From UHGV virus genome UHGV-0262291: DNA of 11,287 nucleotides; one strand, given 5' to 3'. The DNA comes from a virus. How positions within the stretch are numbered: position 1 is the stretch's first letter; every line of letters begins with the position of its first letter. The notes beneath the pieces were generated by a model. It was given only the letters and a program-made list of their open reading frames with translations. It was not told where the DNA came from and searched no databases. Position numbers and translations under genes: made by a program. Positions 5,284 through 6,419 of the stretch are shown here, in pieces.

Positions 5284-5547
5284 TTAACCCGCAGTGCTTT
5301 CAACTGATGAGGGGAACAAAATCTTTTCATCAAACCCTGCATTCATATCATGAACAGCAACACACCAATCCATCGACGAACGATTATCAAGAGCCTCCAT
5401 GATTTCATCCATGCGGCGTAGGTCATACAGGTAAATGCTTTTATCGCCAATGGTGTAAAAGCCAATTTTTTTCGGTGATGGACAGCGATCAAGAACTTCC
5501 TGTAATTCGTTCAACCATGCCCGTTCTTTTTTTGTCAAAGTTGCCAT
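5284..5547 (-). CDS. Hypothetical protein, 87 aa
   Basis: The ORF track extends to 5637, but the ATG at 5547 (MATLTKKERAWLNELQ...) has an AAGGAAAA SD and lies 1 nt after the stop of the upstream membrane-protein gene, so the upstream extension is unlikely to be translated. Confidence 0.5.
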   Translation of the reverse strand: MATLTKKERAWLNELQEVLDRCPSPKKIGFYTIGDKSIYLYDLRRMDEIMEALDNRSSMDWCVAVHDMNAGFDEKILFPSSVESTAG

Positions 5548-5548
5548 A

Positions 5549-5767
5549 TCAGTTTTCCTTATACGGATTAATTTTATTGTGCAGTGTGTTGAATGACGCC
5601 CATACCACGTCGTTATACAATTCAATAACTGGCTCAATTATTTTTCCTATTATCCAGACTAGGATTAACGGGGATATCGGTATCATCAACACGATAAACA
5701 GAATGAGAAACAGAAATTCTGTTGTTCTACTCTTTCGCGGATATTTTTTTCTAAATAATGTGACCAT
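5549..5767 (-). CDS. Small single-pass membrane protein, 72 aa
   Basis: Basic N-terminus (MVTLFRKKYPRKSRTTE) followed by a hydrophobic segment of about 25 residues (FLFLILFIVLMIPISPLILVWIIGKII); tightly coupled to the downstream 87-aa gene. Confidence 0.5.
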   Translation of the reverse strand: MVTLFRKKYPRKSRTTEFLFLILFIVLMIPISPLILVWIIGKIIEPVIELYNDVVWASFNTLHNKINPYKEN

Positions 5768-5799
5768 TCATCACCGCCCTTTCGGGCGGCCTCCTGACA

Positions 5800-6012
5800 T
5801 TAATCGTTGTGATAACTCATAGCTTCATTTGCAGCATCAACTGGATCAACCTCCCTCCAGCAATAATTTGGGTCGGCTCCTTCAAGCGTCCACGGTTCTA
5901 ATTCATTTTTTGCCGCATTCTCATCGCCAGTAATTTTAAAAATCTGCTCAGAGAATTTTCTTGCCCACTCGTTATATTTTTCCGCATTAATGGCTTTCTG
6001 TGTATTTAACAT
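5800..6012 (-). CDS. Hypothetical protein, 70 aa
   Basis: ATG at 6012 with GGAGG SD 8 nt upstream; acidic protein with no recognisable motif. Confidence 0.5.
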   Translation of the reverse strand: MLNTQKAINAEKYNEWARKFSEQIFKITGDENAAKNELEPWTLEGADPNYCWREVDPVDAANEAMSYHND

Positions 6013-6062
6013 AAATATACCTCCAGTTAAGGATTAGATTTTATTTACAGCGCTAAATTTAT

Positions 6063-6419
6063 TTATTCAGTTCTGGATTTTGTCACCCTGCGTATCCGCG
6101 CTTTCGCGTTACGCTCAATCTGAATTAACTTTTCTATATTTTTCCGCCTTTCCTGTTCCTCCTGGCGCAATAGCTTTACATCATCTGCCAGCCTGGTTTC
6201 TCTTTTCGCCACAGAGAGCATCCAGTCAAATGGCTCCACAACTGCACCGCAGATTTTACAGCGGACCTGACGCTCTTTTTCGTCAACCCGGACAGAGGCG
6301 TGATGACAATATGGTCTTTCCGATGGCTCATAAAGAAAATTAACCTGATTACGAGGGTCATCCTCTTTTACCGGAAATAAAACGATATTGCTTAACTCAT
6401 CCTCTGGTTTTATTTCCAT
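6063..6419 (-). CDS. Hypothetical protein with zinc-ribbon-like motif and basic coiled-coil C-terminus
   Basis: The ORF track extends to a GTG at 6476 with no SD; the ATG at 6419 (MEIKPEDEL...) has AAGGAGAGGAG immediately upstream. CHH...(x15)...CKIC motif, then a Lys/Arg/Glu-rich helical tail. Confidence 0.5.
   Translation of the reverse strand: MEIKPEDELSNIVLFPVKEDDPRNQVNFLYEPSERPYCHHASVRVDEKERQVRCKICGAVVEPFDWMLSVAKRETRLADDVKLLRQEEQERRKNIEKLIQIERNAKARIRRVTKSRTE

What the first reader, a model, noticed from the sequence alone, without database searches (positions are those of the whole stretch)
5284..6419. Accessory block of four small genes between the replication and recombination modules
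The block holds a zinc-ribbon coiled-coil protein, an acidic 70-aa protein, a 72-aa single-pass membrane protein and a tightly coupled 87-aa protein (stop and start 1 nt apart). None shows a recognisable housekeeping phage function. This position in lambdoid phages is a hotspot for accessory genes such as superinfection exclusion, anti-defence or toxin-like functions; the coupled membrane-protein/partner pair is the most suggestive.
Basis: inference. Interest (0 to 1): 0.45.

Follow-up and report, generated by a model that had tools for sequence, protein, structure and literature searches.

The report
Shuffled small genes of a prophage
These are four real but uncharacterised small genes in the early region of a lambda-like E. 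coli prophage; phages swap each of them independently, they are common and already catalogued, and the membrane protein and its neighbour are not a dedicated pair.

Summary
Four minus-strand genes lie exactly at 5284-6419:
- gA, 118 aa, with conserved C-x-H...C-x2-C zinc ligands and a 55-residue helix.
- gB, 70 aa, pI 4.5.
- gC, 72 aa, single-pass membrane protein, Pfam DUF4014.
- gD, 87 aa, starting 1 nt after the gC stop.

All four are under purifying selection (dN/dS 0.02-0.3). The block is 100% identical to E. coli chromosomes, where it is annotated as hypothetical or DUF4014 proteins.

- The site is a mosaic accessory slot, and the four genes have separate distributions. In 5426 complete E. 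coli genomes, gA occurs in 1679, gB in 620, gC in 1012, gD in 979, and the whole block in 264.
- gC is followed at the same 1-nt spacing by at least five unrelated genes.
- gD abuts whatever gene precedes it. Outside E. coli it never has a DUF4014 neighbour.
- The "coupled pair" is therefore a property of the gene joint, not a two-gene system.

No homology to toxin, defence, exclusion, structural or replication families was found. gD has a confident predicted fold with no match among solved structures. Function stays unknown. The most likely reading is separate early lytic host-interaction factors.

The parts
6397..6480 (-). 27-codon mini-ORF VSEISYQASITAGIRIKGEEHGNKTRG*. It is the collapsed remnant of an Ead/Ea22-like gene. 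Its GTG overlaps the DUF977 stop and its end overlaps the gA start by 23 nt. It carries the portable linker ATTCGCATCAAAGGAGAG (..GIRIKGE).
   Evidence: Translation. In L020 a full-length 153-aa Ead/Ea22-like ORF (PF13935, E 6.2e-11) with the same end sits at the same place. The same linker precedes gD in other prophages.
6063..6419 (-). gA: 118-aa protein with a disordered N-terminus, a C-x-H...C-x2-C zinc-ribbon-like knuckle and a long, basic, extremely conserved C-terminal helix. phrog_1621.
   Evidence: dN/dS about 0.1. Present in 1679 of 5426 E. coli genomes.
5800..6012 (-). gB: 70-aa acidic protein (pI 4.5), phrog_4659. The family was found only in Escherichia and Shigella, at 70% identity or more.
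   Evidence: dN/dS 0.2-0.3. Present in 620 of 5426 genomes.
5773..5790 (-). GC-rich hairpin GCCGCCC-GAAA-GGGCGGU between the AGGAGG at 5790-5795 and the gC ATG at 5765-5767. It has no U tail and travels with gC.
   Evidence: Fold -19.9 kcal/mol, z -3.3. It is conserved upstream of gC even when the upstream gene differs, and one variant keeps the pair as G.U. It is not called a terminator.
5549..5767 (-). gC: 72-aa single-pass inner-membrane protein, Pfam DUF4014 / phrog_1832. Homologue of 933W L0067 and epsilon15 gp46. Conserved on both sides of the membrane span.
   Evidence: dN/dS 0.13-0.23. Present in 1012 of 5426 genomes.
5545..5551 (-). Joint TGA-T-ATG between gC and gD. It has a Shine-Dalgarno-like AAGGA inside the gC 3' end. 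It is a recurrent module boundary.
   Evidence: gD is identical across loci whose adjacent gC differs by dS 0.3-0.46. The intact joint occurs in 582 genomes.
5284..5547 (-). gD: 87-aa acidic soluble protein, phrog_1714. Predicted alpha-beta-beta-alpha-alpha-beta fold with no match among solved structures. It has an invariant CPS..G....G......YD core and a conserved C-terminal FPxxVxSTAG tail.
   Evidence: dN/dS 0.02-0.15. Present in 979 of 5426 genomes.
4404..5273 (-). Neighbour gene: 289-aa EaA-like protein with the N-terminal 'MTTITKE..ALASLEAEPVA' module and a C-terminal DUF551. It is the most frequent downstream neighbour of both gD and gC in other phages.
6477..6899 (-). Neighbour gene: DUF977 / Ren-like winged-helix protein, the last gene of the replication module and the usual upstream border of the variable slot.

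Best explanation
The block is not a system. It is a stretch of the mosaic 'ea/nin-type' accessory array of a Qin/Rac-like lambdoid E. coli prophage, made of four genes that phages exchange independently.

Shown:
- Each gene is a real, selected protein-coding gene.
- Each has its own distribution among phages.
- The joints between the genes are recombination boundaries.
- Those boundaries are marked by short conserved sequences: the Ea22-type gene end ..GIRIKGE*, the gC 3' end TGAnATG, and the EaA-type N-terminus MTTITKE.
- The 1-nt spacing between gC and gD is a feature of these joints, so any gene dropped into the slot becomes translationally coupled to its neighbour.

Inferred:
- The genes are transcribed with cro, the replication genes and DUF977 as part of the early-right operon.
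- They are therefore made after infection or induction, not in the lysogen.

Guessed, at about 0.25 each: every product acts alone as a small early host-interaction factor.
- gC inserts N-in/C-out in the inner membrane and binds a host envelope protein.
- gA dimerises through its helix and uses the zinc knuckle and basic helix to hold a conserved host protein or nucleic acid.
- gD and gB are soluble cytoplasmic binders.
For: The genes are real:
- Full-length PHROG matches.
- 120-211 homologue clusters per searched family.
- dN/dS 0.02-0.3.

The genes are independent:
- Genome counts are 1679, 620, 1012 and 979 for gA to gD, 582 for the gC-gD joint and 264 for the whole block.
- There are more than 20 architectures around gD. 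gA may be absent, upstream of gB, or downstream of gD.
- At least five different genes follow gC at the same 1-nt spacing.
- gD lies behind unrelated genes, with a gap of no more than 3 nt or an overlap, in Pectobacterium (a P2-like prophage), Edwardsiella, Klebsiella, Serratia, Tatumella and Pluralibacter. No DUF4014 is nearby in any of them.
- In Stx phages gA, gB and gC lie in the exo-xis region with other genes interleaved.

The joints are recombination boundaries:
- Identical gD sits next to gC copies that differ by dS 0.3-0.46.
- The linker ATTCGCATCAAAGGAGAG precedes gA in the window and gD elsewhere.
- An Ea22-like gene has collapsed to 27 codons in the window but is full-length in L020.

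Operon context:
- There is an unbroken minus-strand gene string from 8719 to about 3700, with gaps of 1-57 nt inside the block.
- The scan calls no strong minus-strand terminator in that stretch, only a weak 5-pair site at 6741-6753 inside the DUF977 coding sequence, and no minus-strand promoter.

No match to housekeeping, toxin or defence families.
Against: - No expression or phenotype data exist for any of the four genes. Literature searches by family name, locus name, accession and peptide all returned nothing.
- The promoter scan is insensitive. It called no minus-strand promoter anywhere in the window, so it missed whatever early-right promoter drives this gene string. Lack of an internal promoter is therefore weak evidence.
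- gC upstream of gD is still the commonest arrangement for gD in E. coli (65 of 81 copies). A facultative interaction is not excluded.
- The functional guesses rest only on composition, predicted topology and conservation patterns.
Confidence: 0.7

Rival explanations
1. One reading: gC is a membrane toxin or exclusion effector, and the translationally coupled gD is its dedicated partner (antidote, regulator or co-effector).
For: The 1-nt stop-start spacing. gC immediately precedes 65 of 81 near-identical gD copies in E. coli prophages. One gD relative (P0372) carries an N-terminal two-helix membrane segment, and P0006 is a DUF4014-gD fusion. Both may be annotation or frameshift artefacts.
Against: gC is followed at the same spacing by at least five unrelated genes, and gD accounts for only 25-26 of 79. 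gD in 12 loci from other genera never has DUF4014 nearby. Only 582 of about 1000 genomes carrying gC or gD have the joint. The two genes have different histories at the joint. There is no match to toxin-antitoxin or defence models.
Confidence: 0.08
2. gC (DUF4014) is an inhibitor of a host membrane O-antigen-modifying enzyme, as its epsilon15 homologue gp46 is labelled ('acetyltransferase inhibitor'). It would alter the cell surface after infection.
For: gC is 50% identical over its full length to epsilon15 gp46 and g341c gene 23, which GenBank names acetyltransferase inhibitor. It is a small single-pass membrane protein conserved on both faces. Small phage proteins that alter O-antigen exist (Iap, Gnarl1-3; PMC12373910).
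Against: The label is an untested proposal. [quoted passage not shown] The family occurs in phages of hosts with very different O-antigens, including O157 Stx phages, ES18, the P1-like D6 and HK225. From my own knowledge, E. coli K-12 lacks O-antigen, which would weigh further against this if HK225 was propagated on K-12. gC is not among the 196 accessory genes of the Gnarl screen.
Confidence: 0.12
3. One or more of the soluble proteins (gD, gB, gA) is an anti-defence protein that neutralises a host immune system early in infection.
For: Early-operon position, small size and acidic pI of gB and gD. Strong purifying selection and a wide spread of gD across Enterobacterales, with fold relatives in Vibrio phages. 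No known fold or family. The genes lie in regions known for accessory genes.
Against: There is no similarity to any characterised anti-defence protein that I could test. No co-variation with a defence system was examined. The Silas accessory-gene set does not include them.
Confidence: 0.15
4. gD works with the EaA/DUF551-type gene that follows it, not with gC, as a conserved two-gene unit.
For: An EaA-type N-terminal module gene starts 6-13 nt after gD in the window, in most E. coli loci, and in 4 of the 12 loci from other genera (Edwardsiella twice, Klebsiella, Pluralibacter). Three more (Raoultella, Leclercia, Erwinia dacicola) have such a module a few hundred nt further on.
Against: It is absent after gD in the P2-like Pectobacterium, Serratia, Tatumella and K. 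spallanzanii loci. The same EaA module also follows gC directly in 19 of 79 loci. It therefore behaves like another conserved linker end.
Confidence: 0.12
5. The ORFs are decaying or non-functional filler in a cryptic prophage.
For: The neighbourhood shows decay in some strains. In DLI.5a the DUF551, RusA and methyltransferase genes are pseudogenes. The window holds a collapsed Ea22-like remnant.
Against: All four ORFs are intact, have dN/dS well below 1 and recur in functional Stx phages.
Confidence: 0.03

Closest known systems
Pfam DUF4014 / phrog_1832 (933W L0067, epsilon15 gp46, g341c gene 23, ES18 gene 39, epsilon34 gene 27)
   Same: gC is a full-length member (88.6 bits). It is 91% identical to 933W L0067 and 50% to epsilon15 gp46. 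It has the same 72-aa single-pass layout and the same habit of sitting just upstream of EaA/DUF551-type genes.
   Different: Nothing structural differs. The family itself has no tested function. Its two labels, 'acetyltransferase inhibitor' and 'released from the phage upon host infection', are unverified.
Accessory arrays of lambdoid and P22-like phages: the lambda exo-xis region and the P22 ea region (Ead/Ea22, EaA)
   Same: The same kind of densely packed, non-essential early genes, exchanged at conserved gene ends. The window contains an Ea22-like remnant and an EaA/DUF551 gene. In Stx phages gA, gB and gC lie inside the exo-xis region.
   Different: Here the array lies in the early-right operon after the replication genes (the nin position), not between exo and xis. 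None of the four proteins is homologous to the studied lambda exo-xis proteins: Orf60a, Orf61, Orf63, Orf73/TraR, Ea22 and Ea8.5.
Small phage membrane inhibitors of envelope enzymes (Iap of phage D3 and the epsilon15 alpha-polymerase inhibitor; Gnarl proteins)
   Same: Size class, early expression, and (for gC) membrane location. This is a conceivable mode of action for gC.
   Different: No sequence relationship was shown, and no LPS phenotype is known for DUF4014.
Membrane toxin loci such as the hok/sok at 3782-4107 in this same window
   Same: A small hydrophobic peptide gene in a prophage early region.
   Different: hok/sok has its antisense RNA (Rfam sok, 121.7 bits). gC has no antisense RNA signal. 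Plus-strand promoter-like hits are within chance. gC is also conserved on both soluble faces.
Zinc-ribbon domains (TFIIB type PF08271, ribosomal S27e)
   Same: gA has four conserved metal ligands spaced C-x-H-x13-C-x2-C, and predicted beta-hairpins.

Membership tests
Pfam DUF4014 (PF13198), for gC | Full-length match above the gathering score | tested here: met
   88.6 bits against a cut-off of 23.2, residues 1-72 on profile positions 1-72. phrog_1832 at 5.8e-45.
epsilon15 gp46-type 'O-acetyltransferase inhibitor', for gC | Sequence homology to epsilon15 gp46 | tested here: met
   50% identity over 72 aa, with 31 invariant columns.
epsilon15 gp46-type 'O-acetyltransferase inhibitor', for gC | Demonstrated inhibition of an O-antigen acetyltransferase | not testable with these tools
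   The label is a proposal that has 'not been investigated to date' (PMC9558356).
Two-gene toxin-partner (toxin-antitoxin-like) module, for gC plus gD | The two genes co-occur as a unit across genomes | tested here: not met
   At least five alternative genes follow gC. gD occurs without DUF4014 in 12 loci from other genera. The joint is present in 582 genomes, against 1012 for gC and 979 for gD.
Two-gene toxin-partner (toxin-antitoxin-like) module, for gC plus gD | Homology of either protein to a known toxin or antitoxin family | tested here: not met
   No Pfam, NCBIfam or PADLOC match for gD. gC matches only DUF4014.
Two-gene toxin-partner (toxin-antitoxin-like) module, for gC plus gD | Toxicity of one product, relieved by the other | not testable with these tools
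   Needs expression experiments.
Superinfection exclusion or lysogenic conversion gene | Expressed from the repressed prophage (own promoter, or part of the immunity transcript) | tested here: inconclusive
   No minus-strand sigma-70-like site at 5100-6700. The genes lie inside the early-right gene string. The scan called no minus-strand promoter anywhere in the window, so it is insensitive.
Superinfection exclusion or lysogenic conversion gene | Homology to known exclusion proteins (Sie, Rex, Imm, Cor and others) | tested here: not met
   No such PHROG, Pfam or PADLOC match for gA to gD.
Zinc ribbon (PF08271 TFIIB type), for gA | Match above the gathering score | tested here: not met
   21.1 bits against a cut-off of 29.
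Zinc ribbon (PF08271 TFIIB type), for gA | Four conserved metal ligands on two knuckles | tested here: met
   C38, H40, C54 and C57 are invariant in 51 sequences. Beta-hairpins are predicted at 43-61. Metal binding itself was not tested.
Ead/Ea22-EaA mosaic accessory array | Ead/Ea22-like and EaA/DUF551-like genes, or their conserved ends, flank and interleave the small genes | tested here: met
   Ea22-like remnant at 6397-6480 and its full-length counterpart in L020. DUF551/EaA gene at 4404-5273. The same neighbours occur in 933W, ArgO145, epsilon15 and g341c.

The most novel reading that the evidence does not exclude
gD may found a new, widespread class of small phage effectors. The family has about 211 clusters at 50% identity in Enterobacterales prophages, with fold relatives in Vibrio phages. 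Its confidently predicted fold is absent from the PDB. It has near-invariant CPS..G and C-terminal STAG motifs and dN/dS of about 0.05. It might, for example, be an anti-defence or host-takeover protein whose conserved C-terminal tail docks onto a conserved host target. The almost invariant basic helix of gA might similarly target a core host machine.
Probability: 0.15. Interest if true: 0.55.

Novelty: already known. Interest (0 to 1): 0.18.

Why it matters
As a discovery it matters little. The exact sequences sit in hundreds to thousands of E. coli genomes and in Stx phages. They already belong to a Pfam DUF and to PHROG families, and no system-level organisation emerges.

The useful results are mostly corrective:
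- A 1-nt stop-start spacing in these phage arrays marks a standard module joint. It should not be read as evidence for a functional gene pair.
- The two functional labels attached to DUF4014 in databases have no experimental basis that I could find.
- gD and gA stand out as unusually well-conserved 'dark' early proteins. They would be cheap to include in accessory-gene screens, including screens on Shiga-toxin phages that carry gA, gB and gC.

Tried and rejected
- Family searches. Pfam, PHROGs, NCBIfam and PADLOC scans of all four proteins returned only DUF4014 and unnamed PHROGs.
- PDB sequence and profile searches for gA, gB and gD found nothing.
- The AlphaFold database library was not available.
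- A profile search with gD over 1.84 billion proteins found 211 relatives. Ten longer 'fusion' relatives had no Pfam domain, so no partner-domain clue came from them.
- Comparisons by tblastn, or profile comparison where noted, gave nothing significant: lambda early-region proteins (tblastn of gA-gD against lambda 21000-45000), lambda Ea8.5 (gA profile: a 22-residue, 6% probability local match around CHH..V.VDE), Rac YdaE (gA profile), the 933W 95-aa gene that occupies the gD slot (gD profile) and the K-12 Rac prophage.
- lambda Orf73 was considered as a gC equivalent because of its size. It was rejected because it is a TraR/DksA-type zinc protein.
- The Gnarl O-antigen modifiers were considered for gC. 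None of the four proteins appears in that screen's supplementary sequences.
- Literature searches for DUF4014, the PHROG phrase, L0067, RefSeq accessions and peptides found nothing.
- The Kropinski 2007 epsilon15 paper could not be read.
- Rfam found only sok, outside the block.
- The plus-strand 115-aa ORF at 5475-5822, antisense to gC and gD, was disregarded. It has no support, and the two plus-strand promoter-like sites are within chance.
- The genome-contig scan with the gD profile used a single narrow pattern and returned only 9 loci.
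Full report
**What is there**

The window is the early region of a Qin/Rac-like lambdoid prophage of E. coli, read on the minus strand.
- The gene order is: a LexA-family repressor (plus strand), cro, a YdaT-like gene, a replisome organiser, DUF977, the four genes of the finding, an EaA/DUF551 gene, hok/sok, DUF968, RusA and a Q-like gene.
- The 1193-base stretch 5284-6476, which contains the block, is 100% identical to chromosomes of E. coli DLI.5a and AST46. There it is annotated as three hypothetical proteins and one DUF4014 family protein.
I call them gA (6063-6419), gB (5800-6012), gC (5549-5767) and gD (5284-5547).
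- Their described properties hold: pI 4.5 for gB, one strong hydrophobic segment in gC, and a TGA-T-ATG joint between gC and gD.

**Are they genes?**

Yes.
- Each matches a PHROG family end to end, at E 1e-45 to 1e-55.
- gD has 135 homologue clusters at 90% identity and 211 at 50% identity.
- gA has 150 clusters across Escherichia, Klebsiella, Salmonella, Serratia, Erwinia and Yersinia.
- gB has 120 clusters, all of the named ones from Escherichia or Shigella.
- Nei-Gojobori dN/dS against the window copy is about 0.1 for gA, 0.2-0.3 for gB, 0.13-0.23 for gC and 0.02-0.15 for gD.
- The exact proteins are on up to 1000 or more public contigs each, always named hypothetical, phage protein or DUF4014.

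**What the proteins look like**

gA:
- C38, H40, C54 and C57 are invariant.
- The helix segment LRxEExxRRxNIEKLIQIERNAKARIRR is almost invariant, while the first 35 residues vary.
- AlphaFold2 gives a disordered N-terminus, short hairpins at the metal ligands and one helix at 63-117.
- The heptad pattern is moderately significant.

gC:
- It is a full-length DUF4014 member.
- It is conserved in its basic N-terminus, in the proline-containing membrane span and in the C-terminal 30 residues.
- From the positive-inside rule I infer an N-in/C-out topology.

gD:
- It folds with pLDDT 92 into an alpha-beta-beta-alpha-alpha-beta unit.
- Only two unnamed Vibrio-phage models in BFVD resemble it.
- Its C-terminal FPxxVxSTAG tail survives even in the most remote relatives.

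No protein matches a toxin, defence, exclusion, structural or replication family.

**Is it a unit?**

No. Counts in 5426 complete E. coli genomes:

| Feature | Genomes |
|---|---|
| gA | 1679 |
| gB | 620 |
| gC | 1012 |
| gD | 979 |
| gC-gD joint | 582 |
| Whole block (at least 80% covered) | 264 |

- Eighty IMG/VR loci centred on near-identical gD show more than 20 gene orders. gA may be missing, may lie in front of gB, or may lie after gD. Some loci have gA then gD without gB and gC.
- In 79 usable loci centred on gC, the next gene always begins 1 nt after the gC stop. It is an HNH-like protein in 27, gD in 25 (plus one frameshifted), an EaA-like protein in 19, a Cys-rich protein in 4 and a 933W-type protein in 3.
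- Outside E. coli, gD sits directly behind the P2-type gpA gene in Pectobacterium, an 80-aa Cys-rich gene in Edwardsiella, and a 265-aa gene in Klebsiella. It sits behind other genes in Serratia, Tatumella and Pluralibacter. DUF4014 is never within reach.
- In Stx phages such as ArgO145 and 933W, gA, gB and gC lie in the exo-xis region with other genes interleaved, and gD is replaced.

**How the mosaic is built**

- Loci that share an identical gD carry gC copies that differ by dS 0.3-0.46. A recombination boundary therefore lies at the TGAnATG joint.
- Upstream of gD in other prophages, and upstream of gA in the window, lies the same linker ATTCGCATCAAAGGAGAG. It encodes ..GIRIKGE, the end of Ead/Ea22-like and other genes.
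- In the window, the 57 bases between DUF977 and gA are the collapsed 27-codon remnant of such a gene. The full 153-aa Ead/Ea22-like version (PF13935) occupies the same place in L020.
- The N-terminal MTTITKE..ALASLEAEPVA module of the downstream EaA/DUF551 gene recurs after gD and after gC in many phages. It looks like a third conserved joint.
- Tight coupling is therefore what any gene in this array shows.

**Expression**

- Inside the block the scan calls no minus-strand promoter or terminator. Across the rest of the gene string from cro to about 3700 it calls only one weak terminator-like site, inside DUF977.
- I infer co-transcription with the early-right operon after induction.
- The scan is crude and called no minus-strand promoter anywhere in the window, so this remains an inference.

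**Known labels**

- GenBank names gC homologues 'acetyltransferase inhibitor', following epsilon15 gp46. A 2022 review says these epsilon15 inhibitors have never been investigated. The family also occurs in phages of hosts with unrelated O-antigens.
- The PHROG label 'released from the phage upon host infection' could not be traced.
- None of the four proteins appears in the literature searches or in the supplementary sequences of a 196-gene accessory-gene screen.

**Verdict**

- The general idea of an accessory hotspot is supported.
- The specific suggestion of a membrane-protein/partner pair is not supported.
- The block is an ordinary, already catalogued piece of lambdoid mosaic 'dark matter'.
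- The most likely mechanism is four separate early host-interaction factors. This is a weakly supported guess.
- The best-supported statement concerns architecture: independent modules joined at conserved linkers.

Noticed in passing
window 6397-6480 (minus strand): A 27-codon ORF, VSEISYQASITAGIRIKGEEHGNKTRG*, joins the N-terminal and C-terminal ends of an Ead/Ea22-like gene. Its GTG overlaps the DUF977 stop (GTGA), and its end overlaps the gA start by 23 nt. It looks like the scar of an internal deletion between conserved gene ends.
   Followed up: yes
window 5773-5790 (minus strand): A 7-bp GC hairpin with a GAAA loop lies between an AGGAGG and the gC start codon, 22 nt apart. It has no U tail. 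It stays with gC when the upstream gene changes, and one variant keeps pairing through G.U. It might bring the Shine-Dalgarno sequence close to the AUG, or it might stabilise the mRNA.
   Followed up: partly
window 3782-4107 (minus strand): A complete hok/sok-type locus: a Hok-like peptide ORF at 3782-3994 and an Rfam sok match at 3932-4107 (121.7 bits). It lies between the DUF551 gene and DUF968.
   Followed up: partly
L091 3469-3999 and 3146-3505; L020 2691-3152: Unrelated genes all end in ..G[IR]..IKGE directly before the next start codon: a Mom-like 163-aa ORF, an EaA-like 119-aa ORF and an Ea22-like 153-aa ORF. The conserved 3' end behaves as a portable linker.
   Followed up: partly
P0006, P0124, P0161/P0163, P0372 (database proteins): Apparent fusions occur: DUF4014-gD (133 aa), Ea22-gA (202 aa), DUF977-gA (201 aa) and a two-helix membrane segment joined to gD (158 aa). 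They are most likely frameshift or annotation products of the 1-nt joints. The last one could be real.
   Followed up: no
L094, L095, L102: Contigs binned as Segatella copri and Collinsella sp. MAGs carry gD at 98-99% identity to E. coli. This is almost certainly E. coli prophage DNA that was mis-binned.
   Followed up: no
L001 8121-8990 against window 4404-5273: The DUF551/EaA gene is intact (289 aa) in the window but split into a pseudogene plus a short ORF in E. coli DLI.5a. RusA and a DNA methyltransferase are also truncated there. The window therefore comes from a less decayed copy of the prophage.
   Followed up: no
window 6300-6330 (gA residues 37-48): There is a short local resemblance between gA (CHHASVRVDEK) and the zinc region of lambda Ea8.5 (CRHHEGVYVDEG). 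hhalign probability is only 6%, so I treat it as chance.
   Followed up: yes
window 6940-8016 and 6477-6899: The replication module has a DnaD-like replisome organiser and a DUF977 winged-helix protein, which PHROGs label 'Ren-like exclusion protein'. The window holds no DnaC/P-type helicase loader.
   Followed up: no
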